This document shows, piece by piece, positions 18,443-57,670 of a DNA stretch of 64,000 nucleotides. The translations under genes and the position numbers were made by a program. Under the pieces are notes generated by a model. The model was not told the origin of the DNA, did not search any database, and saw nothing but the letters and a program-made list of their open reading frames with translations. Position 1 is the first letter of the stretch. Every line of letters begins with the position of its first letter. Origin of the DNA: an uncultured Gammaproteobacteria bacterium (lineage in GTDB: Bacteria > Patescibacteriota > Patescibacteriia > Patescibacteriales > UBA12465); assembly GCA_964470695.1 (NCBI GenBank), contig CAYYDR010000002.1, forward strand, positions 8,401 to 72,400, written 5' to 3'.

Positions 18443-19102
18443 TTATTCAACAATCACTTGGCGGACAACCACCTGCTCCCGGCTATATTTTTTCTTAGCA
18501 CTGATAATAAGGCTATTTAAACCTTTTTTTAAGTTAATATCTTGAGAAAAATGTCCGCCGTGATTATTTAGAATAATGGTGTTATTTATCCTGACTTCGG
18601 CTTCTGGCTCAGTCTGCCCCGTAACGGTTATGACCAGAGATTTTACTAAAATATTTTTGGCTGGCTGGCTCACTAATAAATCAGGAGGGAAAATAATTTT
18701 TTTAAAGTAGGATATTAAATAAAGGAAACAGACAAGAACAGCGATAATTATTAGAGCGTTTCTAATAATCTTAGGAAATATAATAAATTTATTTTTTTTA
18801 ACAATTTTTTGCGAGAAGGGATCTTCGGTATCATTGTGAGGCAGACCTTCCTCTAGGCTTTTCATGATGTCGGTTAATTTAAAGCCGAGAAATGCGGCGT
18901 ACTCTTTAAGAAAATTTTTCCCGTATAGCCCGGTGGGTAATTTATCAAAGCGCTCCTCTTCTAGGGCAATTAAATATTCTGATCTGATGTTCAATTTTTT
19001 AGCAATATCCTCAATCTTTAAATTCTTGAAAAGGCGGGCTTGCCGTAATTTTTCTCCGGCCGTTTCCGCTAGAGGTAATTTTTTAGGGATGAATGGGGAC
19101 AT
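18443..19102 (-). CDS. RodZ-like HTH membrane protein
   Basis: 219 aa. N-terminal Xre/HTH_25-type helix-turn-helix (GEKLRQARLFKNLKIEDIAKKLNIRSEYLIALEE), a central TM helix and a C-terminal beta-rich domain. Confidence 0.6.
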   Translation of the reverse strand: MSPFIPKKLPLAETAGEKLRQARLFKNLKIEDIAKKLNIRSEYLIALEEERFDKLPTGLYGKNFLKEYAAFLGFKLTDIMKSLEEGLPHNDTEDPFSQKIVKKNKFIIFPKIIRNALIIIAVLVCFLYLISYFKKIIFPPDLLVSQPAKNILVKSLVITVTGQTEPEAEVRINNTIILNNHGGHFSQDINLKKGLNSLIISAKKKYSREQVVVRQVIVE

Positions 19103-19114
19103 TTAAGCTGGATT

Positions 19115-19615
19115 TTATTGGTTTGGTGCGGCTGGCTGGTCGGGCAACTGCTTTATCTTTATAGGCTGTTCATTGCTATCAAATGCTTCGCCATTCCAAT
19201 CTAGCCCAATTATTCCTAAGGAGGCTTTAATAATTAAGAAGCTGCCTAAAACTATTAATAATCCGATAATAGCCGCCACAAATATTTTTTTACCTTTTTG
19301 GACTTTCTCGCTAGATCCGCCGGATAGAAGCAGCTCCTGTCCGCCCATGATGAACATGAACAAGCATAATGAGCCAACTATGCCTAATATCCATCTAGCA
19401 ATATTAATTCCTAAACGGATAAAATCGTTAAGTTCGTAATTGCCGCAGTAAGTTCGGGGGTCCTGTTTTAGTTCGGCCGCTCTGTTTACGCAGTTAGCGT
19501 CGGCCGCCGCACCATGGGCGTCGGGCAGTATACCGGTAGATGCGGTTTGGGCCAAAGCAATATTACATATCAGTAATCCAAAAATGATGAGCGGGAAAAG
19601 GCTTTTTTTAAACAT
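19115..19615 (-). CDS. VirB2/TrbC-like small pilin-family protein, distal copy A7
   Basis: 166 aa. Signal peptide (..IALA|QT), exposed segment with two Cys, core GGQELLLSGGSSEKVQKGKKIFVAAIIGLLIVLGSFL that aligns gap-free with the array, plus a C-terminal tail of about 35 aa ending PDQPAAPNQ. Confidence 0.6.
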   Translation of the reverse strand: MFKKSLFPLIIFGLLICNIALAQTASTGILPDAHGAAADANCVNRAAELKQDPRTYCGNYELNDFIRLGINIARWILGIVGSLCLFMFIMGGQELLLSGGSSEKVQKGKKIFVAAIIGLLIVLGSFLIIKASLGIIGLDWNGEAFDSNEQPIKIKQLPDQPAAPNQ

Positions 19616-22669: not shown

Positions 22670-25600
22670 TTATTTTTTTAGTTCATCTAATTTTACACTT
22701 AGTAATTTACTGACTCCGTCTGATTCCATCGTTACCCCATATAAGATACTGGCCTTGCGCATGCAGGCGCGATTATGAGTAATAACAATGAACTGGGTCT
22801 TATTGGACAAATCATCCAATATTTTAGCTAGACGTTCGGAATTAGCTTCATCAAGAGCCGCGTCTACCTCATCTAAAACCACAAAAGGAGAGGGATTAGC
22901 GCTGATAATGGCGCAAATAAGGGCAATGGCCGTTAAAGCTCTTTCTCCGCCCGATAACATGGTTACTGTTTGAATCTTTTTCCCGGGCGGGGTGGCTTGG
23001 ATTTCTATCCCCGCTAGTCCGACGGCATTATGCTTCTTGAGGAATTTTATCTTTTTTAACTTCTCGTCCATAGCGGTTTTAATCGCCACTTCGGCCGGGG
23101 TTAATCCGCTAGTCGCTTCAGTCCCGTTATTATTCTGATTATTTTTAGCTTCTTCAGTTTCCAAGTCATCAACCATTAGTTTGGATATTTTGGCTGTCCC
23201 GCCATTAAAAAGAATCTTGAAATAGTCGTTGAATTTTTCGGAAATAACCCTAAATTCAGCGTCAAAACGATTTTTAATGTTTAAGTCTAATTCGTAAATT
23301 ATTTCTTCCAGAGACTTAATGGCTTTATCTAGATCTTCAGTCTGGCCGCTTAAGAAATCGTAGCGCTCCTTTGTCTCTTGATATTCTTTTTCCGCTTCCG
23401 GATCAATCCCGCCTATTTGTTCTAGTTGGCTCTTATTAGTATTAATGTGTTTTGATAAGCGATCTATGTCTAAATTGTTTTCGCTGGGCTGATAATTTTT
23501 AATATCAAGGACATTTAACTCTTCATTGCGGATGTTAGTCTCTAGATCCTCTAGTCTGGTTTCTTGTCTGGTTGCTTCTATCTTTAAATTATTTATTTCT
23601 GACAGAACGTCATTCAGCTCTTGTTGCAAGGCTTGAATATTTTTTTGGATGGAGAACATCTGGGCTTTTTCCGCCTCTTTGGCCTGGCTAAGCTCATCTA
23701 AGGATTTTTCTAAAGTTTTTATCTCTTCGTTAAGAGGGGCGATTTTTTGGTTAATAGCTTTTTTTTCATTTTCAATCTGGCCGGCGTCAAATTTAATTTG
23801 GCTCTTGGCGATTTTTCCCTGTATACTATTTATTTCATTTTCGGTCTGGATTTTTTTAGCTTGTAATAATCGTAATCTCTCGCTGATAGTAGAAGTCTTT
23901 AGCCGTAAATCTTGAAGCCGGGATAATAAAAGTTGTTTTTTATCATTTAGTTCTGTTGAGGAGTCTTCCTTGGCTAGCAAGCCAATTTCTTTATCCAGGG
24001 CACTGATTTTTTTGTTGATTTGTAATTTTTCCTCCTCAATTTTACTAGCGTCAAACTTAACTTGTGCTTTCTCTAGTTTAACCTTAATATCTTTGAGTTC
24101 GCGAGTAATTTGAATTTCCTTATCTTCCGATAGCCTTAGTCTCTCGCTGATAGTAGAGAGGCGTAAGCGCTCTTCATTTAAGCGATTATTTATTTCTTGT
24201 CTTTCCTCGGTTAGGCGGATTATTTCTTCCTGAATAGATTTTATTTTAGCTAGCTCGTCTTGGTTTCCGCCGGCCATTAATATTTCTATTTTATCTTTAA
24301 ATTCCTTCTTGGCCTCCGCGATAATTTTTTTAATTTTATTCAGGTCATTTTCCCCTTGGGCCGCTTCAAGCTTAGTTAAGAATTCATCAACTAGTTGGCT
24401 TAATTGTTCAGTTTGGCTGCCCGCTGCTCCGGCCTTCTTTAAATTTTTATTAATTATTTCAATTTCTTGATTAAGCTCTCTCAGCCTTTGGTTTAAGGAG
24501 TCAAATTTATTCTCTAAAATTTTTCTTTCTTGCGGATTGCTAGCCAGACGCAAGTCGTCTAATTCTTTAGTTAATTTAGCCAGCTCCATTGTTAATTCTT
24601 CCTGCTTGTTATTAAGCCAAGAAACATCAAATTGCCCTTGTACTTCTAGATTTACTTCTAAAATGGCTTCTAATTTAGAAATCTGCTTCAGGTATTGTCC
24701 TTTCTCTTCTTCTAAGCGGTTAACCTGTCTCTTGATATCAAAAGCCTTTTCTAATTCTTTATTTATTATGCTTAATTCGGCGCGTAATTCGTCTTCCTCA
24801 TGGCTGGATTGATTCTTGTTGAGAGACTCTATTTCCAAATTAAGATTATCTAACTCGGTTGTCAGCTCGCCTTGCTTGTTATTAAGCCAAGAAACGTCAA
24901 ATTGCCCCTGAGCTTCTAATTGGACCTCCAGCTCCGCCTGTAATTTAGCTAGCTGTTTTAGATATTGATTTCTTTGATTTTCTAATTCTCTTAACCGCGG
25001 TTGCAATTCGTTTATTTTCTGGGAGTTGTCGGTTGTGCGGATTTTATTTAAGTCATCATTAAGTTTATTTAACTTTTTTTCGCGTTCTATTTTTATTTTT
25101 TCATTTTCTAGAAAACGCTGGTTAGCGGTTTCTAACTTACGATTAATATCCTGCCAGAGGAAACCATAATATTCTAACTGATCTTGGCGCAGCGCTGTTT
25201 CAATTTCTCCTCGTTTCTTTAATTTTTCCACTTGTCTAGTCAGACTTTTTAGACGCGGTTTTATTTCGGAGAGAAGCATGTCTACCTGTTGCAAGTTTTC
25301 GTAGCTATTTTCTAGCTTGTTCAAGGCAGAGTCTCTTTTAATTTGGAATTGTTTAACCCCAGTCGCTTCGTCAAAGAAATCTTTGCGTTCGGCCGCTGAA
25401 GAGCTTAAAAAATTTTCTACCATCCCCTGGCCGATAACACTATAGGTTTTTTGTCCGAAATTGGCTTTAGCGAGCAGCATTTGAATATCAGCCAGGCGAA
25501 CGCGGCTGCCGTTCAATAAATATTCGCTATCGCCGTTCCTATATAATCGCCGGGTAATTAATATTTCCGGACAGCTCAAAATTATTTGGTCTAAGTCGCT

Positions 25601-25930
25601 TTCTTTTTCAATTGCCTCAGGCTGAGCCGCTTTATTTTTAGCGGCCTCTGCATTATTAAGATATAAAGAAACCTCGGCCAGGCTGAGTTGGTTTTTTTGA
25701 TCGGAACCAGAAAAAATGACATCTTCACTTTTTTTGCCACGCAGAGTTTTTAGACTTTGTTCCCCAAGTGCCCAGCGGACCGCATCGGCTACGTTGGACT
25801 TGCCTGAGCCGTTAGGACCGACAATGGCGGTTAGGCCTCTTTTTTGGCCATCAAGCAGGCCGGAGAATATAAGTTTGTTTTTATTAGCAAATGATTTAAA
25901 CCCTTGGACTTCCAGTTTCTCTAAATACAT
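22670..25930 (-). CDS. smc: SMC-family chromosome segregation ATPase, apparently hinge-less
   Basis: 1086 aa. Canonical N-head (FKSFA, GPNGSGKSN, DAVRWALGEQS) and C-head (LSGGERALTAIAL signature, FVVLDEVDAALD Walker B). Residues ~190-900 are continuous heptad-like sequence with no globular hinge motif. Confidence 0.85.
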   Translation of the reverse strand: MYLEKLEVQGFKSFANKNKLIFSGLLDGQKRGLTAIVGPNGSGKSNVADAVRWALGEQSLKTLRGKKSEDVIFSGSDQKNQLSLAEVSLYLNNAEAAKNKAAQPEAIEKESDLDQIILSCPEILITRRLYRNGDSEYLLNGSRVRLADIQMLLAKANFGQKTYSVIGQGMVENFLSSSAAERKDFFDEATGVKQFQIKRDSALNKLENSYENLQQVDMLLSEIKPRLKSLTRQVEKLKKRGEIETALRQDQLEYYGFLWQDINRKLETANQRFLENEKIKIEREKKLNKLNDDLNKIRTTDNSQKINELQPRLRELENQRNQYLKQLAKLQAELEVQLEAQGQFDVSWLNNKQGELTTELDNLNLEIESLNKNQSSHEEDELRAELSIINKELEKAFDIKRQVNRLEEEKGQYLKQISKLEAILEVNLEVQGQFDVSWLNNKQEELTMELAKLTKELDDLRLASNPQERKILENKFDSLNQRLRELNQEIEIINKNLKKAGAAGSQTEQLSQLVDEFLTKLEAAQGENDLNKIKKIIAEAKKEFKDKIEILMAGGNQDELAKIKSIQEEIIRLTEERQEINNRLNEERLRLSTISERLRLSEDKEIQITRELKDIKVKLEKAQVKFDASKIEEEKLQINKKISALDKEIGLLAKEDSSTELNDKKQLLLSRLQDLRLKTSTISERLRLLQAKKIQTENEINSIQGKIAKSQIKFDAGQIENEKKAINQKIAPLNEEIKTLEKSLDELSQAKEAEKAQMFSIQKNIQALQQELNDVLSEINNLKIEATRQETRLEDLETNIRNEELNVLDIKNYQPSENNLDIDRLSKHINTNKSQLEQIGGIDPEAEKEYQETKERYDFLSGQTEDLDKAIKSLEEIIYELDLNIKNRFDAEFRVISEKFNDYFKILFNGGTAKISKLMVDDLETEEAKNNQNNNGTEATSGLTPAEVAIKTAMDEKLKKIKFLKKHNAVGLAGIEIQATPPGKKIQTVTMLSGGERALTAIALICAIISANPSPFVVLDEVDAALDEANSERLAKILDDLSNKTQFIVITHNRACMRKASILYGVTMESDGVSKLLSVKLDELKK
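23651..24169 (-). repeat. in-frame tandem duplication (about 88 codons x2) in the C-proximal SMC coiled-coil arm
   Basis: Residues ~588-676 and ~675-760. STISERLRLSEDKEIQITRELKDIKVKLEKAQVKFDASKIEEEKLQINKKISALDKEI against STISERLRLLQAKKIQTENEINSIQGKIAKSQIKFDAGQIENEKKAINQKIAPLNEEI. TCTCTCGCTGATAGTAGA occurs at 23876 and 24140 (offset 264 nt). Confidence 0.85.
24461..25003 (-). repeat. in-frame tandem duplication (90 codons x2) in the N-proximal SMC coiled-coil arm
   Basis: Residues ~310-399 and ~400-489. For example, QYLKQLAKLQAELEVQLEAQGQFDVSWLNNKQGELTTEL against QYLKQISKLEAILEVNLEVQGQFDVSWLNNKQEELTMEL. At DNA level 24601-24640 and 24871-24910 differ at only a few positions, offset 270 nt. 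Confidence 0.85.
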
Positions 25931-26704: not shown

Positions 26705-27031
26705 ATGGTTGAGACCAAATTAGACCTTAAACCGGGAATGACTGTCCGGGTCCATCAAAAAATTAAAGAATTAAACTCCAAGGGTGAAGAAAAGGAGAGA
26801 ATTCAGTATTTTGAAGGGATGATAATTGCTCGCAAGCACAATAAAGAGACTGGCGCGACTATTACTGTTCGTAAAGTTTCTGAGGGCATTGGAGTGGAGA
26901 AAATTTTTCCTTTGAATCTGCCTACTATTACTAAAATTGAAATTAAAAAACAGGCAGAGGTTAAACGGGCTAAATTATATTTCTTGCGCGACGGCTATAA
27001 GAAAAAGTTAAAAGAAAAAGTCGTCAAATAA
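26705..27031 (+). CDS. rplS: 50S ribosomal protein L19
   Basis: 108 aa. [12 protein letters not shown]...[14 protein letters not shown]...[28 protein letters not shown] is the L19 pattern. Confidence 0.9.
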
Positions 27032-50919: not shown

Positions 50920-53412
50920 ATGATAGAGAATTTTATCAAGGTTAGGGGGGCAAGAACAAATAATTTAAAAAATATAAATTTAGATATCCCCAGAGATAAG
51001 CTAGTGGTTATTACCGGTTTATCTGGTTCTGGCAAGTCGTCTCTGGCTTTTGACACTATTTACGCTGAGGGACAACGCCGTTATGTTGAATCCCTATCAT
51101 CTTATGCTAGACAGTTTGTCGGTCTAATGGACAAGCCGGACTTTGATTTAATTGAGGGTTTGTCACCGGCTATTTCCATTGATCAGCGAACGGTCGGTCA
51201 TAATCCTCGTTCCACGGTTGGTACTATTACGGAAATATATGATTATTTGCGCTTGCTTTATGCTAGAGCCGGCCAGCCCTATTGTCCTAATTGTGAGACT
51301 ATCATGACCAGATCGGCGGAAGAAAAAAAATCCAGCAAAACAGTCCGGGGCCGAGAAATAAAATCCGCTAAGACAGAAAGATTTTTTATTTGTCCTACTT
51401 GCTCTTATCGCCGCCCGGAATTAGAGCCGCGGGATTTTTCTTTTAATTCTGGACATGGCGCCTGCGTTACCTGCGGAGGATTAGGGACAAAAGCAGAAAT
51501 AGATCCGGAATTAATTTTTAATAATAATTTGAGTATTTTAGAGGGGGCAATAAAGCCGCTTTCCCACGCTAATTGGAATGGCAACGGCCTCTTTCTAGGT
51601 TTAAATGAGTTAGCAACTCGTCATAATTTTAGCCTGCGCCCCGCGGTTAAGGATTTAACGGTTGATCAAAAAAAGTTAATTATCAAAGGCGACAGCCAGT
51701 TTCCTGGTTTACTCTCTATCTTAAACGATAAGTATCAAGAAACAAAATCTAGCTTTGTTAAAACGGAAATTGAAAAGACTATGCGGACGTCTCTGTGTCC
51801 GGTTTGCCGGGGTGCCCGTCTTAAATCAGAATCGCTAGCGGTTAAAGTTAATAATTTATCAATTATAGAGGTTACTGATAAGAGCATTAAAGAGTTGGCT
51901 CCGCTATTTGCGATGTGGTTAAAAAATCCGTCTTACGCTAATGGGCAGGCTAAAATAATTGAGCCCATTATTAAAGAGATGATCAAGGATTTAGAATTAC
52001 TTAATAATGTCGGATTGGGATATCTTACTTTAAGCCGGGCGGCCATTACTTTGTCTGGCGGAGAAGCGCAAAGAATAAGGTTAGCCTCGCAAGTCGGATC
52101 AACTTTGAGTGGCGTCTTGTATGTTCTTGATGAACCATCTATTGGTCTGCATCAGAGAGATAATGATAAATTAATCGCCACCCTTAAAGAGCTGCGTGAT
52201 AACGGCAATACGGTTATTGTTGTAGAGCATGATGCTGCAACGATGTTAGCTTCGGATTGGTTAATTGATATCGGTCCGGGAGCGGGCGATGATGGCGGGC
52301 AGGTTTTATTCACAGGCACGCCCGAAGGAATAAAAAAATGCAATGAATCTCTAACCGGCGCCTATTTATCCGGCAAGAAAGAAATTAAAATGCCGGCCAA
52401 GTTTAGAACCGGCCATAATAAGGCTATTAAAATATTAGGCGCGACTGAACATAATTTAAAAAACATAGATGTAGAAATTCCGCTCGGCAAGTTAGTGGCG
52501 ATAACGGGCGTCTCCGGCTCCGGCAAGTCTACTATCATGAGCGATATTCTAGCTAACGCCCTGACGCGCAAGTTTTATAGAGCTAAAGTGGAGCCAGGCG
52601 CTCATAAGCAATTAACTGGCTTAGAATTTATTGATAAAGTAATTGATATTGATCAATCGCCGATTGGCCGGACGCCGCGCTCTAACCCCGCGACTTATAC
52701 AGGATTGTTTACTTATATTCGGGATCTTTATGCTGAATTACCAGAAGCGCGGGTAAAGGGTTTGGGGGCCGGACATTTTTCTTTCAATGTTCCGGGCGGG
52801 CGTTGCGAAAATTGTTCCGGTGATGGCGTCATTAAGGTAGAAATGCAATTTTTATCCGATGTTTATCTGACTTGCGAAGTTTGCGGCGGCCATAAATTTC
52901 AACCTAAGATACTAGAGGTACTTTATCAAGGGAAAAATATCGCGGAAGTTTTAAATATGACCGTTGAAGAGGCTAAGGATTTTTTTAAGGATCACTCGGC
53001 TATTAGCCAGAAATTAAAGACTCTTTATGAAGTTGGCCTGGGTTATATAAAATTAGGCCAAAGCGCCACGACTTTCTCGGGCGGCGAAGCGCAGCGTATT
53101 AAGCTAGCTACCGAGCTTTCGCGCCGTGCGACCGGCAAAACTCTCTATATATTAGACGAGCCGACTACCGGGCTGCACTTCGCGGATATTGATCGCTTGC
53201 TTAAAGTTCTTAATATGTTAGTGGATCAAGGCAACACGGTTTTGATTATTGAACATAATTTGGATGTTATAAAATCGGTGGACTGGGTGATAGACTTGGG
53301 CCCGGATGGCGGAGAAGCCGGCGGGTATTTAGTAGCGGCCGGGACGCCGCTAGAAGTTTCCAAAGTAGCCAAGAGCTATACTGGGCAGTATTTGAAGAAA
53401 TTGATTGGCTAG
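50920..53412 (+). CDS. uvrA: excinuclease ABC subunit A, short form lacking the UvrB-binding domain
   Basis: 830 aa. Two ABC modules (GLSGSGKSS / GVSGSGKST; LSGGEAQR twice) and zinc modules. Only 35 residues separate CPNC and CPTC where canonical UvrA carries a domain of about 135 aa. Confidence 0.85.
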
Positions 53413-53535: not shown

Positions 53536-54036
53536 TTAAACAAGATCAGCAATTATTTTTAATTCTAATTTTTTATTACTAACATTTAAGATGGCGAAAG
53601 TCGCTTGATGCCAGACGCCCGCGACATTACCAGGATTCACTATAGTTACATTATCACGTTTTTCTAGCCAGGGTTTATGGGTATGACCGTAGAAAATAAA
53701 ATCTGGCTTAGAATGGGAGCTATTTAAAATTTTTTCTATTTTAATTGGCTCATGGCAGAAGGCAATATTTGTTTCAGCTATTTTAATTCGCCCTACTGCC
53801 CCGAATGATTTTATATTTTTTAAACCAGCTAGTTCATCATCCTCATATATTTCAATATTGCCGCGAACAACAAAAATCTCGCCCGGAAAATTAGTGGCGA
53901 GATAATTTATTGTTTCTAGAGTCGTCGTGTCACCGCAACAGATTAGTTTAGTAATTTTATTTTGTTGGCAGCATTTGAGAACTTTAGCTAAATTAGCTAG
54001 GTTATCATGAATATCGGAAATTACCGCGATTAGCAT
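53536..54036 (-). CDS. YfcE/MJ0936-family metallophosphoesterase
   Basis: 166 aa. Motifs SDIHDN, GDT, GNIE, GHTH in canonical order. Confidence 0.8.
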   Translation of the reverse strand: MLIAVISDIHDNLANLAKVLKCCQQNKITKLICCGDTTTLETINYLATNFPGEIFVVRGNIEIYEDDELAGLKNIKSFGAVGRIKIAETNIAFCHEPIKIEKILNSSHSKPDFIFYGHTHKPWLEKRDNVTIVNPGNVAGVWHQATFAILNVSNKKLELKIIADLV

Positions 54037-54047
54037 ATGAAACTAAT

Positions 54048-54623
54048 TTATTTTTGACCGCGGATTTTTATTTCGTAGGCCATTTGCTCTAGTTTTCTTA
54101 GGTGTCCGCGCGCTTGGTCGTATTTAGTTCTTAGGTAGCCCGTCATATCAAAATCCACTAATTGGGACATTATGTCGTCGGCAGTTTTTTTTGTTTTGGC
54201 CACGGCGCTGAATTTTCCGGCGGCCGCCTGGTTAGTCGCGTAGCGGACCAATTCGCCGACCATATCGCAGACTCCGCCCAAATAAGATTCATAGTCTAAA
54301 CGCAATCCTTTGACGGCCTCAATTTTTTTATTTTTTATAATAGCGTATAGGGTTTTTCCCTCCAAATATTCTTCAGCCGCCGCTTTGTAGGCCCCCTCTC
54401 TATGCAAGCGTTCAAAACCGAAACGTTCCTCTAAATTCTGTAAGGCCTTTTCCATGCCGATTAACTTTTCCTCCGCTTCCTTAAGATTTTGTCTTTGCAA
54501 AGCAAAAATTGTTTTTTTAGCTTCAAATAAAATATTATTGGAAGCGCTGATTATTTGCCGACGCTCTGATTCGTTGGCCTGATAGTCCTTTTTTAATTCG
54601 CCTAAAAATTTATCATTGATCAT
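54048..54623 (-). CDS. translin-family protein (putative nucleic-acid binding)
   Basis: 191 aa, all-helical. YLGGVCDMVGELVRYA and a C-terminal LRTKYD...KLEQMAYEI resemble the Translin/TRAX pattern. Recognised by eye only. Confidence 0.45.
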   Translation of the reverse strand: MINDKFLGELKKDYQANESERRQIISASNNILFEAKKTIFALQRQNLKEAEEKLIGMEKALQNLEERFGFERLHREGAYKAAAEEYLEGKTLYAIIKNKKIEAVKGLRLDYESYLGGVCDMVGELVRYATNQAAAGKFSAVAKTKKTADDIMSQLVDFDMTGYLRTKYDQARGHLRKLEQMAYEIKIRGQK

Positions 54624-54652: not shown

Positions 54653-57600
54653 TTAAATTACTCTGAAGACTTCTTCCAGGCTAGTTTCTCCGTTAATTGC
54701 CTTGAGAATACCGTCTTGAAGCATGGTAACCATACCGTTTTTAACAGCCGCCATTTCAATATCGGTATCAGTGACATTTTCGGTTTGAATAAGCTTCTGA
54801 ATGTCAGAATTCATGGTAATAGTTTCATATAAACCCAAGCGGCCTTTATAGCCGATTTGTCCGCATTTTTCACAGCCAACACCAGTATAGAAAGTTAATT
54901 TTTCTGGTATTTTTATTTCAGGGTTGTTAATAGTCGCTAAAATATTTTTTATCTTGGTTAATTCGGTTGGGTCAACTTCCAGCGGTTTTTTGCAATGAGG
55001 ACAGAGCCGTCTTACCAAGCGTTGGCCGATAGTAAATTCAATGGCATTAGCTAAAGTCTGCCTATCTAACCCCAGGCCGACAAAACGCGAAATAGCGGCC
55101 GCGGCGCTATTAGCATGAATAGTGGAAAGGACTAGGTGGCCAGTCAGAGAAGCTTCAATAGAAATTTTAGCCGTCTCGCTATCGCGGATTTCCCCTATCA
55201 TCATGATATTAGGATTTTGGCGCAAGAGGGAGCGCATCGCCGAAGCAAAAGTATAGCCCCGGTCTTCGTCTATCTGAGTTTGCATAATGCCGGGGAGCTG
55301 GTATTCAATCGGATCTTCAACGGTGATTATTTTAACATCAGGCTTATTTAATTTATTTAAGACGCTATAGAGAGTAGTGGTTTTACCGCTGCCGGTCGGA
55401 CCGGTCGTTAAAATTATGCCCCGCGTCTTCTTCATGGCTAATTGCAAAGAGTTAAACGCGACTGAAGTTATGCCTAATTTATTCATGTCTAAATTAGCGG
55501 CTGAAGTTGATAGGAGGCGGATAACAATAGTTTCCCCGTAGCCGCCGGCAATGATTGATAAACGGCAGTTTACTTTACTGTCGGGCAGATAAACGGTAAA
55601 GCGCCCATCAAAAGTCGCCCGCTTAATGTTAGTTGGCGCGCCCGCTAAGATTTTTATTTCCGATAGTAACTGCAAATAACTGGTCTTTGGAAGATCAAGA
55701 ATATCATGCAGGACGCCGTCAATTCTAAAGCGAACTTTTACGTCTTTTTCGGTCGGTTCAATATGGATATCGCCGGCGTCATTAGAAAATCCTAGAGCCA
55801 TTACCAGATTGATCAGCTGTCCAGTGGGGATTTCTTTAACGGCTGGCGCTATTTTTGTTATGTCACGGCTGAGATCTTCGGCCTGTTTTATTTCTTCAGC
55901 ACTTATTTTAACACCGCGGCCGATAGTTTGGGAAATAACAATATCATAAAGCTCATCAACATAATCAAAATTGCCAATAACGCGATAAATTTCTTCTAAA
56001 GAAGTAACTCCATCCAAAACTTTTAGAACGCCATCTTGAAGCATGGTAATCATGCCGTCTTCAATAGCTTGCTGCAGTATTTTAAATGATGGCGCCTGGT
56101 CAATGGTTAGCTGTTTAATCCTATCGTTCATGGTAAATATTTCGTAAATACCGATACGCCCTTTGTAGCCGATAAAGTTGCATTCCGCACAACCAGGGCC
56201 CGCTTGATAAAGCGGGGGAAGATTTGAAGCAATCTCAATACCGGCCTTAGGAGAAACTACGGCCAATATTTTATCAACCCGTTCTTTCTCTTCCTCGTTT
56301 AAAGTATGTTCTAGCCGACAGTGTGGACAAAGTTTTCTGACTAAGCGCTGTCCGATGACGACGTTAATTGATGGGACTAAGAAATATGGTTTTACACCAA
56401 TATCTATTAAGCGAGGAATGGTGCCGGCTGAATCATTAGTATGCAGGGTTGATAAGACTAAGTGGCCGGTCAGCGAGGCTTGGACGGCAATTTCCGCTGT
56501 TTCTAGGTCGCGGATTTCTCCGACCATTACGACGTTGGGATCTTGGCGCAATATAGAACGTAAACCATCAGAGAAAGAATAGCCATGCTTACCATCAACC
56601 TGGCTTTGGTTGATCCCTTTAAGCTGGTATTCAATCGGGTCCTCTAGAGTAATTATTTTAGTGCCGGGTTTGTTTAGTTTATTCAAAACCGCGTATAAAG
56701 TCGTAGTTTTACCGCTACCGGTAGGACCAACGGTCAGGACTAGCCCGTTTGGTTTAGCAATTTCTCTAGATAAAATGGGCAGTATTTCCGGTCGGACGCC
56801 TAATTTCTCAAATTCTAAAGCGGCCGCGGCTGAATCAAGCAAGCGCATAACCACGCTTTCTCCGTAAGCGGTTGGCAGGAAGGAGCAGCGGACATCTATC
56901 TTTTTATCTTTAAGAAAGATAGTATAGCGGCCGTCTTGAGGCGAGTCGGTAATATTTATTTTAACGCGTGCTAAAATTTTTAAACGGGAAATTATTTTAT
57001 GCCATTTCTCCCGGCTGATAACCGCTGCTTCCTGGAGAACGCCGTCAATTCTGATTCTGATTGCCACTCCGTGTTCTTCGGCTTCAATATGGATATCGCT
57101 GCCACCGGCTTTTAGTGCGGTTGCTAGCATTAAGGTAACGATATCAGTTATATTGACTTCGTTTATTTTTTCATTGAGGCTTTTATAGTTATCAATCGCT
57201 TCCTTAAATTTTTCTAGACTCTCTTCATTTATTTCTACCCCATTATTATATTTTTTTACTTTTGGCAGGCTTTTGTAGGCCTCTATAGCCATGGATAGGC
57301 TGGTTGGCGAGATTAGATATAATTTGGCAGCCGCGTAATATTGATCCGCCAGTTGGGCCATTTCATTTTCTGCTTCTTCGGTTAATTCCAGGCAGCCTAA
57401 ACGAATATTAGTCCCATCATAATAAAAGCAGATAGTATTTATGGCTCGAGCTTGTTCCTCTGGGATTAATGATAGAGCTTCCGGACTAATTGGAAAACGA
57501 GATAAGTTAACGTATTCTAAACCTAAATCATCAGCTTTTTGTTTAGTTTCTCTCTCTATCTCTTTCAGCTTAATTTCTACTTGTTTTTTTGCAAAACGAC

Positions 57601-57670
57601 CGGCGACGCTTTCTTCGTCATCGGTCGGATTGGTTAAATTTTTAATTGAAGCAAAGTCGCTCATAATCAA
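54653..57670 (-). CDS. tandem-fused double PilB/GspE-type secretion ATPase
   Basis: 1005 aa. Module 1 (res 1-565) and module 2 (res 566-1005) each carry Walker A GPTGSGKTTTLY, an Asp box, Walker B (VMVGEIRD / MMIGEIRD), a His box (GHLVLSTLHTN / GHLVLSTIHAN) and a tetracysteine motif (CPHC..CAEC / CPHC..CEKC). The track start is TTG at 57670; an ATG at 57664 lies 9 nt after GGAGAG. Confidence 0.85.
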   Translation of the reverse strand: MIMSDFASIKNLTNPTDDEESVAGRFAKKQVEIKLKEIERETKQKADDLGLEYVNLSRFPISPEALSLIPEEQARAINTICFYYDGTNIRLGCLELTEEAENEMAQLADQYYAAAKLYLISPTSLSMAIEAYKSLPKVKKYNNGVEINEESLEKFKEAIDNYKSLNEKINEVNITDIVTLMLATALKAGGSDIHIEAEEHGVAIRIRIDGVLQEAAVISREKWHKIISRLKILARVKINITDSPQDGRYTIFLKDKKIDVRCSFLPTAYGESVVMRLLDSAAAALEFEKLGVRPEILPILSREIAKPNGLVLTVGPTGSGKTTTLYAVLNKLNKPGTKIITLEDPIEYQLKGINQSQVDGKHGYSFSDGLRSILRQDPNVVMVGEIRDLETAEIAVQASLTGHLVLSTLHTNDSAGTIPRLIDIGVKPYFLVPSINVVIGQRLVRKLCPHCRLEHTLNEEEKERVDKILAVVSPKAGIEIASNLPPLYQAGPGCAECNFIGYKGRIGIYEIFTMNDRIKQLTIDQAPSFKILQQAIEDGMITMLQDGVLKVLDGVTSLEEIYRVIGNFDYVDELYDIVISQTIGRGVKISAEEIKQAEDLSRDITKIAPAVKEIPTGQLINLVMALGFSNDAGDIHIEPTEKDVKVRFRIDGVLHDILDLPKTSYLQLLSEIKILAGAPTNIKRATFDGRFTVYLPDSKVNCRLSIIAGGYGETIVIRLLSTSAANLDMNKLGITSVAFNSLQLAMKKTRGIILTTGPTGSGKTTTLYSVLNKLNKPDVKIITVEDPIEYQLPGIMQTQIDEDRGYTFASAMRSLLRQNPNIMMIGEIRDSETAKISIEASLTGHLVLSTIHANSAAAAISRFVGLGLDRQTLANAIEFTIGQRLVRRLCPHCKKPLEVDPTELTKIKNILATINNPEIKIPEKLTFYTGVGCEKCGQIGYKGRLGLYETITMNSDIQKLIQTENVTDTDIEMAAVKNGMVTMLQDGILKAINGETSLEEVFRVI

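What the first reader, a model, noticed from the sequence alone, without database searches (positions are those of the whole stretch)
22670..25930. SMC with canonical heads but no hinge domain, and matched ~90-residue duplications on both coiled-coil arms
The N-terminal head (FKSFA, GPNGSGKSN, DAVRWALGEQS) and C-terminal head (LSGGERALTAIAL, FVVLDEVDAALD) are textbook SMC. Between residues ~190 and ~900 I find only heptad-like, charged, helical sequence.

Nothing resembles the globular hinge of about 150 aa expected mid-protein (glycine-rich dimerisation motifs, and the G-R-A-T-F-L-P-L type segment). There is also no CxxC zinc hook of the Rad50/SbcC type. The only helix-breaking spots near the centre are KKAGAAGSQ (about residue 499) and LMAGGNQ (about residue 551).

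The ascending arm carries an in-frame tandem duplication of 90 residues (junction near residue 400). The descending arm carries one of 88 residues (junction near residue 676). The midpoint of the two junctions is about residue 538, between the two Gly-rich spots.

In an antiparallel intramolecular coiled coil, arm lengthening must be matched on both strands, and that is what is seen here. The repeats are still nearly identical over about 40 nt at DNA level (24601-24640 against 24871-24910). This points to a relatively recent, compensated arm extension, with a minimal apex of about 50 residues replacing the hinge. How such a protein would dimerise and entrap DNA is an open question.
Basis: partly seen in the sequence, partly recalled or inferred. 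Interest (0 to 1): 0.7.

Follow-up and report, generated by a model that had tools for sequence, protein, structure and literature searches.

The report
Hingeless SMC with period-matched arm duplications
This is the chromosome-organising SMC gene of a Patescibacteria (candidate phyla radiation) bacterium in which the normally defining hinge domain is replaced by a short helical hairpin and both strands of the coiled-coil arm were lengthened by one matching block of about 90 residues; it belongs to a large, apparently undescribed group of hinge-free SMCs.

Summary
ORF 22670-25930 (-) encodes a 1086-aa protein with a canonical Smc ATPase head: it scores above the curated cut-off of TIGR02168, and the predicted head matches the B. 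subtilis Smc head at TM 0.90. No hinge is detectable: there is no PF06470 hit even at E<=10, hhalign against a hinge profile gives 0.1% probability, and AlphaFold2 predicts continuous helix from residue 179 to 908. There are no cysteines in the arm. In-register tandem repeats of 90 aa (N strand) and 88 aa (C strand) score 217 and 195, against 53 +/- 7.5 for shuffles.

The two copies share only about 50% DNA identity, and both duplications occur in all 113 full-length relatives examined. The 40-nt near-identity encodes an invariant motif, QGQFDVSWLNNKQ.

This is not an assembly artefact. The nearest 150 cluster representatives are mostly hingeless SMCs of about 745, 885 or 1040-1090 aa, mixed with hinge-bearing forms of about 1020 aa. 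The gene sits at the ancestral smc-rpsP-khpA-trmD-rplS locus, so it is probably the Smc orthologue.

The duplication adds one ~90-aa unit. This matches the 91-aa functional period of Smc arms and takes the arm from about 260 to about 345 aa. How the protein dimerises and which kleisin it binds remain untested.

The parts
22670..25930 (-). smc gene: hingeless Smc, 1086 aa
   Evidence: ORF listing. TIGR02168 SMC_prok_B scores 605.7 bits against a cut-off of 567.35. Full-length AF2 model has pLDDT 77.9.
25361..25930 (-). N-terminal half of the ATPase head (aa 1-190). Contains Walker A GPNGSGKSN (aa 38-46), the Q-loop region SVIGQGMVE (aa 164-172) and a variable insertion at aa ~95-118.
   Evidence: Pfam SMC_N E 2.6e-52. 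phmmer to B. subtilis Smc head 5XG3/3ZGX gives E~1e-93. Foldseek 5XG3_B TMt 0.90, rmsd 3.6.
25183..25360 (-). Head-proximal 'neck' of the N strand (aa 191-249). It is nearly invariant in the family and is the candidate kleisin-N binding site (inferred).
   Evidence: Column entropy is 0.07-0.43 for aa 191-240, against 1.3-2.8 in the mid-arm. The corresponding region binds ScpA-N in B. subtilis (PDB 3ZGX, listed). Binding was not tested here.
24752..25021 (-). N-strand repeat unit 1 (aa 304-393), with motif QGQFDVSWLNNKQ at aa 341-353 (window 24872-24910)
   Evidence: Offset-90 repeat, score 217. Motif entropy 0.23. Helix break at aa 341-343 in the model.
24482..24751 (-). N-strand repeat unit 2 (aa 394-483), with motif QGQFDVSWLNNKQ at aa 431-443 (window 24602-24640)
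   Evidence: Helix break at aa 431-433. Missing from the 880-896-aa sister proteins, where the alignment gap spans query residues 381-467.
24260..24439 (-). Tip that takes the place of the hinge (aa 498-557). Order of elements: Gly-rich break KKAGAAGSQ, helix 505-525, turn 526-529 (GEND), helix 530-551, Gly-rich break MAGGNQ.
   Evidence: AF2 secondary structure. Invariant hydrophobic residues F517, L521, L530, I537, A540, F544 and I548. hhalign against a hinge profile gives probability 0.1%.
23930..24193 (-). C-strand repeat unit 1 (aa 580-667), with ISERLRL at aa 594 and KFDA at aa 625. In the antiparallel arm it pairs with N-strand unit 2.
   Evidence: Offset-88 repeat, score 195. Motif positions. 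Helix break at aa 623-628.
23666..23929 (-). C-strand repeat unit 2 (aa 668-755), with ISERLRL at aa 682 and KFDA at aa 713. It pairs with N-strand unit 1.
   Evidence: Helix break at aa 711-716. Missing from the 880-896-aa sister proteins, where the gap spans query residues 657-743.
22670..23299 (-). C-terminal half of the ATPase head (aa 878-1086). Contains signature LSGGERALT (aa 992-1000), Walker B/D-loop FVVLDEVDAALD (aa 1016-1027), H-loop ITHNR (aa 1050-1054), and a ~45-aa variable insertion at aa ~918-965.
26705..27031 (+). rplS (ribosomal protein L19), a remnant of the conserved smc...rpsP-khpA-trmD-rplS neighbourhood
   Evidence: The homologous gene in L081/L083 carries PF01245. tblastn synteny survey.

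Best explanation
What it is. This is the organism's Smc, the condensin-type chromosome-organising ATPase of a Patescibacteria (Falkowbacteria-like) genome. Head, neck and joint are canonical. The globular hinge is absent. In its place the two arm strands are joined by a helical hairpin of about 46 residues, set off from the arm by a Gly-rich break on each strand.

How the arm grew. Relative to its closest shorter relatives (880-896 aa, also hingeless), the arm gained one extra ~89-residue block on each antiparallel strand by tandem duplication. The two blocks face each other in the folded arm. This lengthens the arm by about 13 nm, from roughly 260 to roughly 345 residues per strand. The increment equals the ~91-residue functional period (one coiled-coil superhelical turn) found experimentally for B. 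subtilis Smc. Each duplicated unit carries a lineage-specific arm discontinuity: G-Q-F-D-V-S-W-L on the N strand, opposite K-F-D-A on the C strand. Both copies of it are kept under very strong selection.

Shown here: the anatomy, the absence of a hinge, the age and register of the duplications, the family-wide distribution, and positional orthology with smc.

Inferred: the protein still forms a two-armed complex bridged by a kleisin at the heads and acts on DNA like Smc-ScpAB. The tips are probably held together by association of the two hairpins (a four-helix-bundle or RecN-like apical helix contact), by arm-arm zipping, or both. The ATPase cycle then works as in canonical Smc.
For: Head identity:
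- TIGR02168 scores above its curated cut-off.
- The best PDB sequence matches are B. subtilis and Geobacillus Smc heads, E 1e-93 to 1e-78.
- The predicted head superposes on the Smc head-ScpA complex 5XG3_B at TMt 0.90.

No hinge.

The duplications are real and old.

Polarity of the change:
- In a head-domain NJ tree, all 17 long hingeless proteins plus three 880-896-aa hingeless sisters form a clade with 97% bootstrap support.
- The alignment to those sisters shows exactly two gaps, at query residues 381-467 and 657-743.

The hinge was replaced while the arms were kept:
- Hinge-bearing P0144 and hingeless P0143/L003 share 55% identity and sit in a clade with 100% support.
- Their arms are collinear, and the ~183-aa hinge segment is replaced by ~58 helical residues.

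Wide distribution:
- 41 of 48 sampled relatives lack the hinge.
- 9 of 10 named CPR species representatives lack it, including Saccharibacteria, Uhrbacteria and Azambacteria.

Orthology:
- rpsP/khpA/trmD/rplS follow smc in 11 canonical Firmicute loci, in hinge-bearing CPR locus L015, and in 13 or more hingeless CPR loci. rplS lies next to smc in the window.
- Each of 17 CPR assemblies gave only one smc-like locus.

Arm-length logic (PMC5344682):
- Arm-length modes lie at 163, 238 and 341 aa.
- The viability period is 91 aa.
- Replacing the hinge with a Rad50 zinc hook supports normal growth.

Extra packing surface at the tip: 34-37% strongly hydrophobic positions against 28% for the arm, with a conserved a/d/e-type stripe.
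Against: - No kleisin (ScpA) or ScpB gene was found among the window ORFs scanned. The rest of the genome could not be searched, so neither the partner nor the absence of a second, canonical smc is demonstrated.
- Dimerisation through the tip is pure inference. A dimer prediction could not be run. The tip is only moderately conserved (entropy 1.3-1.6). An HMM of it does not recognise the tips of the ~745- and ~885-aa classes.
- The deep branches of the tree are unresolved, so the number of hinge losses is uncertain.
- My arm-length estimates depend on where the head and tip boundaries are drawn (321-346 aa).
Confidence: 0.72

Rival explanations
1. Assembly or annotation artefact: a hinge-encoding segment was lost, or repeats were mis-assembled, in this contig.
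For: Repeat-containing genes can be collapsed by assemblers. Three relatives (P0101, P0105, P0106) do lack one repeat unit, with breakpoints inside repeated sequence.
Against: - The same 1080-1095-aa hingeless architecture is found in more than 115 independent clusters from NCBI, JGI, ENA and Logan, none with PF06470.
- All full-length members have both duplications.
- The reading frame is intact and the arms are in register.
Confidence: 0.02
2. A highly divergent hinge is still present in the central ~120 residues.
For: The centre has two Gly-rich spots, and the tip is somewhat more hydrophobic than the arm.
Against: - No PF06470 hit at E<=10.
- hhalign of a 16-sequence tip profile against a 16-sequence hinge profile gives probability 0.1%.
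- Only about 55 residues lie between the arm breaks, against ~140-180 for a hinge.
- AF2 predicts two helices and no strand.
Confidence: 0.03
3. It is an extra SMC-like paralogue with another role (repair or defence, in the manner of RecN, Rad50/SbcC or Lamassu/Wadjet ATPases), while a canonical Smc is encoded elsewhere in the genome.
For: - Hinge-free SMC-like proteins are typical of repair and defence systems.
- Only 64 kb of the genome was visible.
- No ScpA/ScpB was found nearby.
Against: - It scores as Smc (605.7 bits, above the cut-off). It falls far below the cut-offs for RecN (26.5 against 407.85) and Rad50 (about 40 against 1000).
- It occupies the ancestral smc position next to rpsP/khpA/trmD/rplS, as canonical smc does in Firmicutes and as the hinge-bearing smc does in CPR.
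- Hinge-bearing and hingeless forms are interleaved in the tree rather than forming two paralogue clades.
- There is one locus per CPR assembly in the genome scan.
- There is no nuclease or defence gene context.
Confidence: 0.12
4. The protein does not dimerise at the tip at all. It works as a single-armed or head-only dimer, with a kleisin or ATP-engaged heads as the sole bridge, so DNA is not entrapped in a hinge-closed ring.
For: - No recognisable dimerisation domain, and the tip is only moderately conserved.
- The tips of the three length classes are not alignable by HMM.
- The strongest arm constraint lies on mid-arm motifs, not on the tip.
Against: - Selection for arm lengths that fit the Smc periodicity suggests that the arms still act as paired rods.
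- In B. subtilis an unrelated dimerisation module suffices, but a dimerisation module was still supplied.
- The tip has a broadened, invariant hydrophobic stripe.
Confidence: 0.2

Closest known systems
Bacterial Smc of Smc-ScpAB (B. subtilis Smc; TIGR02168; PDB 5XG3, 3ZGX, 4I99)
   Same: - ATPase head motifs, neck and joint sequences.
- Predicted head fold (TM 0.90).
- Long antiparallel intramolecular coiled coil of about the canonical length (~345 aa per strand).
- Chromosomal position next to the rpsP-khpA-trmD-rplS cluster.
   Different: - No hinge domain (PF06470). It is replaced by a ~46-residue helical hairpin flanked by Gly-rich breaks.
- Arm built with an internal duplicated ~89-aa unit on each strand.
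- Lineage-specific GQFDVSWL / KFDA arm discontinuity.
- ~45-aa insertion in the C-terminal head half.
Hinge-bearing short-arm Smc of other Patescibacteria (e.g. P0144; L015, Candidatus Buchananbacteria; ~1000-1040 aa)
   Same: - 36-43% identity to the query.
- Same conserved Trp motif 158 residues after the FDEATG head motif.
- Same genomic locus.
- Arms collinear with the ~885-920-aa hingeless forms (55% identity for P0144 against P0143).
   Different: - They keep a canonical hinge (E 1e-26 to 1e-32).
- Arms of about 238 aa.
- No arm duplication.
'Hinge-less' SMC cluster from ocean metagenomes assigned to Actinomycetes (PMC12153180, 2025)
   Same: - SMC-type heads.
- Antiparallel coiled coil.
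- No hinge and no CxxC hook.
- Reported as apparently the only smc in the genomes that carry it.
   Different: - A different lineage (it branches with Actinobacteria), reported as a small cluster.
- No arm duplications or length classes are described.
Engineered B. subtilis Smc(Zh) and resized 'mini-Smc' variants (PMC5344682)
   Same: - They show that Smc works with a non-hinge dimerisation module.
- They show that only arm lengths spaced by ~91 aa are functional. The natural 90/88-aa duplication is exactly one such step.
   Different: - These are artificial constructs that still carry a defined dimeriser (a zinc hook).
- Here the tip has no known dimerisation motif.
RecN and Rad50/SbcC (SMC-like repair ATPases without a hinge)
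   Same: - The coiled coil is closed by something other than a hinge.
- RecN dimerises through apical helices (PMC4255302), a plausible analogue for the tip.
   Different: - RecN has a coiled coil about a quarter as long, and its model scores far below cut-off here.
- Rad50/SbcC use a CxxC zinc hook (absent here) and pair with a nuclease (no such neighbour here).

Membership tests
Smc (Smc-ScpAB condensin, TIGR02168) | Whole-protein profile score above the curated cut-off | tested here: met
   605.7 bits against a cut-off of 567.35.
Smc (Smc-ScpAB condensin, TIGR02168) | ABC-type head with Walker A, Q-loop, signature motif, Walker B/D-loop and H-loop, and a fold like solved Smc heads | tested here: met
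   Motifs at aa 38-46, 164-172, 992-1000, 1016-1027 and 1050-1054. phmmer to 5XG3/3ZGX gives E~1e-93. Foldseek 5XG3_B TMt 0.90.
Smc (Smc-ScpAB condensin, TIGR02168) | Long intramolecular antiparallel coiled-coil arm | tested here: met
   AF2 predicts helix from aa 179 to 908 with a turn at aa 526-529. Breaks and motifs are symmetric about aa ~529. This rests on prediction, not experiment.
Smc (Smc-ScpAB condensin, TIGR02168) | Central globular hinge dimerisation domain (PF06470) | tested here: not met
   No hit at E<=10. hhalign probability 0.1%. No strand in the model between residues 145 and 911. No PDB hinge hit.
Smc (Smc-ScpAB condensin, TIGR02168) | Kleisin ScpA and kite ScpB partners encoded in the genome | not testable with these tools
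   None found among 48 window ORFs scanned with Pfam.
Smc (Smc-ScpAB condensin, TIGR02168) | Orthologous genomic position (smc upstream of rpsP-khpA-trmD-rplS, as in Firmicutes) | tested here: met
   tblastn survey of 88 loci. rplS lies at window 26705-27031.
Smc (Smc-ScpAB condensin, TIGR02168) | Homodimer joined at the end of the arm distal to the heads | not testable with these tools
There is only indirect hydrophobicity evidence.
Rad50/SbcC | CxxC zinc hook at the apex and an Mre11/SbcD nuclease partner | tested here: not met
   No Cys between aa 121 and 1005. Rad50 models score <=42.6 bits against cut-offs of 700-1087. No nuclease neighbour.
RecN | ~550-aa protein with a short coiled coil that matches TIGR00634 | tested here: not met
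   26.5 bits against a cut-off of 407.85. The arm is about four times longer.
MukB/MksB/JetC | MukB-type head and hinge with MukEF-like partners | tested here: not met
   No MukB-family Pfam or NCBIfam hit. MukB and JetC structures are only weak fold matches, TM <=0.21.
Hinge-less SMC of marine Actinobacteria (PMC12153180) | SMC head plus coiled coil, without hinge or CxxC, as the single smc of its genome | tested here: inconclusive
   The architecture matches. Sequence relatedness and single-copy status could not be tested.

The most novel reading that the evidence does not exclude
Loss of the SMC hinge is a widespread and probably recurrent feature of Patescibacteria. Their only Smc closes its arm with a bare helical hairpin, so chromosome organisation in this large radiation proceeds without the domain thought to provide dimerisation, DNA binding and a gate. 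Arm length in these proteins evolves in quanta of one coiled-coil superhelical turn, by matched tandem duplications on both strands. This would be a natural counterpart of the engineered 91-residue periodicity.
Probability: 0.45. Interest if true: 0.8.

Novelty: new variant of a known kind. Interest (0 to 1): 0.68.

Why it matters
The hinge is treated as a defining and functionally central part of SMC proteins. It is credited with dimerisation, DNA binding and, in recent work, gating.

A large natural clade of positional Smc orthologues without it, sitting next to close relatives that keep it, is a ready-made comparative system. It could show what the hinge is really needed for and what minimal structure can replace it.

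The matched 90/88-residue duplication is also the first natural 'before and after' pair I am aware of for the arm-length quantisation seen in B. subtilis. The 880-896-aa sisters and the ~1086-aa proteins show how an SMC can move between permitted arm lengths.

Some cultivable Saccharibacteria-type organisms appear to carry the ~850-aa hingeless form, so the questions are experimentally approachable.

Tried and rejected
- Tandem Repeats Finder and the DNA repeat finder did not report the 270/264-nt units, because the copies are too diverged. BLASTP self-comparison returned only the identity hit. A custom diagonal scan was needed.
- A tip HMM built from the close family recognises only the long (~1040-1090 aa) class, at E 1e-5 to 1e-23, and essentially nothing in the ~745 and ~885-aa classes. 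I therefore dropped the claim that all hingeless tips are demonstrably homologous.
There is no structural test of dimerisation and no survey of AFDB.
It gives only weak evidence that the gene is single-copy.
- I looked for gene conversion between the two motif copies. Within-genome copies (43/51 and 46/51 identical bases) are barely more alike than between-genome orthologous copies (40-43/51). The shared synonymous choices fit genome codon bias, so this was not pursued.
- Literature searches for hingeless SMC in CPR/Patescibacteria found nothing. The only precedent is the marine actinobacterial cluster.
- The listing of cluster members added no useful taxonomy.
- The first AF2 model, built from a shallow alignment, had unfolded heads (pLDDT 66). 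It was superseded.

Full report
**1. Observation**

The window carries an ATG-started ORF of 1086 codons at 22670-25930 on the minus strand.

Pfam finds SMC_N (E 2.6e-52) and generic P-loop families, but no SMC_hinge even at E<=10. NCBIfam's equivalog model for bacterial Smc, TIGR02168, scores 605.7 bits, above its curated cut-off of 567.35. The RecN and Rad50 models score far below theirs. The only cysteines are C120, C1006 and C1056, so a zinc hook is excluded.

A scan of all self-diagonals gives two outstanding repeats:
- offset 90: residues 304-490 against 394-580, score 217;
- offset 88: residues 539-654 against 627-742, score 195;
- the next best diagonal scores 80.

Residue shuffles give 53 +/- 7.5 (maximum 85) and heptad-block shuffles give 56 +/- 7.

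**2. Is there a hinge?**

No, on four independent counts:
- No solved hinge structure is matched by sequence, while solved Smc heads match at E 1e-93.
- A profile of the central 121 residues from 16 family members, compared with a profile of 16 hinges (8 from related Patescibacteria, 8 canonical), gives hhalign probability 0.1%.
- Two AlphaFold2 models were built, the second from a 122-sequence alignment (mean pLDDT 77.9, pTM 0.49, heads well folded). Both predict uninterrupted helical secondary structure from residue 179 to 908, with short breaks only and no strand.
- Only about 55 residues lie between the last arm breaks. A hinge segment is about 140-180 residues.

The chain reverses at residues 526-529. 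The breaks and conserved motifs are mirror-symmetric about residue ~529: 503-505/552-556, 431-433/623-628 and 341-343/711-716. This is what an antiparallel intramolecular coiled coil requires.

**3. The duplications are matched but old**

The N-strand units are residues 304-393 and 394-483. The C-strand units are 580-667 and 668-755. They cover the same physical stretch of the arm, since 304+755=1059 and 483+580=1063.

The copies are only 46% / 43% identical in protein and 53% / 50% in DNA. About half of the identical residues use different codons.

Both duplications are present in all full-length relatives found: 113 proteins of 1070-1120 aa at 61-84% identity, from NCBI, JGI, ENA and Logan assemblies. 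They are also present in more distant cluster representatives at about 50% identity.

The 40-nt near-identity is the footprint of an invariant motif. Both copies of QGQFDVSWLN have column entropy 0.23-0.24, as low as the ATPase motifs and far below the surrounding arm at 1.3-2.8. 'Relatively recent' is therefore not supported.

**4. Relatives**

An exhaustive phmmer search of 1.84 billion cluster representatives returned, as the best 150, complete SMC-like proteins in discrete length classes. Measured between the FDEATG and F..LF.GG head motifs, the arm-plus-centre span clusters as follows:

| Span between head motifs (aa) | Protein length (aa) | Hinge |
|---|---|---|
| ~411 | ~745 | no |
| ~545 | ~885 | no |
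| ~665-677 | ~1000-1035 | yes |
| ~697-715 | 1040-1090 (query 713) | no |

Pfam finds a hinge in 7 of 48 sampled proteins. Those proteins are exactly the ~1000-1035-aa class, with E 1e-26 to 1e-31.

Among named species-representative genomes, nine lack the hinge at E<=0.1, including Saccharibacteria, Uhrbacteria and Azambacteria. A Buchananbacteria genome has it.

A neighbour-joining tree of head domains (374 columns, 165 sequences, 100 bootstraps) shows:
- canonical ~1190-aa Smc separated from the rest (100%);
- all 17 long hingeless proteins grouped with three 880-896-aa hingeless sisters (97%);
- hinge-bearing forms interleaved with hingeless ones (clades at 100% and 80%).

The deep backbone is unresolved.

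Hinge-bearing P0144 and hingeless P0143/L003 are 55% identical with collinear arms. About 183 residues of hinge are replaced by about 58 helical residues. Aligned to its three shorter sisters, the query shows exactly two extra blocks, at residues 381-467 and 657-743.

Hinge loss therefore came first. The matched arm extension followed, inside an already hingeless lineage.

**5. Orthology**

In 11 canonical Firmicute loci, rpsP, khpA, trmD and often rplS lie within 6 kb downstream of smc. The same genes follow the hinge-bearing CPR smc (L015) and 13 or more hingeless CPR smc genes. In the window, and in L081-L083, rplS lies next to smc.

Further points bearing on orthology:
- No second SMC-like gene and no ScpA/ScpB is present among the 48 window ORFs scanned. 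However, the window is only about 64 kb of a 313-kb contig.
- Hinge-bearing and hingeless forms are interleaved in the tree.

Together these make an 'extra paralogue' reading unlikely. It is not excluded.

**6. Mechanism**

Bürmann et al. 2017 (PMC5344682) reported four relevant results:
- Natural prokaryotic Smc arms cluster at 163, 238, 341, 423 and 515 aa.
- Resized B. subtilis arms work only at lengths spaced with a 91-aa period, close to the coiled-coil superhelical period.
- Arms of 253-267 aa and 321-344 aa are functional, while those in between are not.

I calibrated my motif-based span on canonical sequences. On that basis the hinge-bearing CPR forms have arms of about 235-240 aa. The ~885-aa hingeless forms measure about 238 aa to the joint and about 262 aa to the apex. 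The query measures about 321 to 346 aa.

The 90/88-aa duplication is therefore one period. It carries the protein from the ~238-267 regime to the canonical ~341-344 regime. This explains why the change had to be matched on both strands and why the unit has that size.

What holds the two tips together is not known. The tip helices carry an invariant, broadened hydrophobic stripe (L510, L513, V514, F517, L518, L521 on one helix; L530, I533, I536, I537, F544, I548 on the other). They have 34-37% strongly hydrophobic positions against 28% for the arm. This is compatible with a four-helix bundle, or with a RecN-like apical contact (PMC4255302). It remains inference.

The most constrained arm element is the GQFDVSWL / KFDA discontinuity. 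It lies 158 residues after the head motif in the ~885-aa hingeless and the hinge-bearing CPR forms. In the query's own subfamily it lies at +156/157 with a second copy at +246/247. It is absent from the ~745-aa class and from canonical Smc. AF2 is unsure of it. It may be a structural knuckle, an arm-arm contact or a partner site.

**7. One-arm variants**

P0101 and P0106 (996 aa) lack one C-strand unit, and P0105 (994 aa) lacks one N-strand unit. P0101 and P0105 come from sibling JGI samples and are 99.4-100% identical in DNA elsewhere. Each breakpoint lies in repeated sequence: 46 nt at 98% identity and 89 nt at 90%. They are derived collapses or deletions of a gene that has both units, not ancestral states. 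Whether they are real alleles cannot be decided here.

**8. Comparison and novelty**

The protein works like, and by position and head sequence is, an Smc. It fails the hinge criterion, so strictly it is an Smc variant rather than a standard member.

Hinge-free SMC-like proteins are known (RecN, Rad50/SbcC). A 'hinge-less SMC' cluster was reported in 2025 from marine Actinobacteria as 'a new kind of biology' (PMC12153180).

I found no description of hingeless Smc in Patescibacteria, of its length classes, or of matched arm duplications in the searchable literature. Databases call these proteins 'AAA family ATPase' or 'chromosome segregation protein'. I rate it a new variant of a known kind, of considerable interest to SMC specialists.

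Noticed in passing
L081 3001-5985, L082 1189-4173, L083 3001-5991 (relatives P0105, P0101; also P0106): Near-identical genes from sibling metagenomes each lack a different ~90-aa arm unit (270 nt or 264 nt), with breakpoints inside the repeats. They are either assembler collapse or real recombinational deletion alleles with mismatched arm strands.
   Followed up: partly
window 24872-24910 and 24602-24640 (aa 341-353 and 431-443): QGQFDVSWLNNKQ is as conserved as the ATPase motifs in both copies (entropy 0.23). A G-x-x-[DN]-[LI]-[ST]-W-[LI] motif lies 158 residues after the head motif in the ~885-aa hingeless and the hinge-bearing CPR Smc (one residue or so earlier in the query's subfamily). 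It is missing from the ~745-aa class and from canonical Smc, which have a conserved 'EG' about 25 residues earlier. Its function is unknown.
   Followed up: partly
window 23036-23179 (aa ~918-965): A ~45-residue, variable, low-confidence insertion lies in the C-terminal head half, between the F..LF.GG strand and GIEIQATPPGKK, relative to B. subtilis-type heads. There is a smaller variable insertion at aa ~95-118 in the N-terminal half.
   Followed up: no
relatives P0121-P0270; loci L001-L015, L070, L074: Hingeless Smc proteins fall into discrete length classes (~745, ~885 and ~1040-1090 aa). These roughly track the published arm-length modes (163, 238 and 341 aa). The ~745-aa proteins would be among the shortest complete Smc proteins.
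   Followed up: partly
window 54653-57670 (-): A 1005-aa ORF has two T2SSE (GspE/PilB-type) secretion-ATPase modules in one polypeptide (E 2e-229, two stretches). It appears to be a tandem fusion.
   Followed up: no
window 54048-54623 (-): A 191-aa ORF matches the Translin family (PF01997, E 7e-19), which is mainly eukaryotic and archaeal. It is adjacent to a calcineurin-like phosphoesterase gene (53536-54036).
   Followed up: no
window 19115-19615 (-) and 18443-19102 (-): There is a T4SS-pilin-like ORF and an HTH/Glucodextranase-B-domain ORF downstream of the solute-binding protein gene. The same trio follows smc in relative L083, so the block is conserved.
   Followed up: no
window 50920-53412 (+): A UvrA-like ABC ATPase of only 830 aa (UvrA DNA-binding domain plus two ABC halves), which seems short for a UvrA.
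   Followed up: no
window 23649-23915 (+) and 24537-24812 (+): Two ORFs of 88 and 91 aa lie antisense within smc. They have low-complexity translations typical of the reverse strand of a coiled-coil gene and are almost certainly not genes.
   Followed up: no
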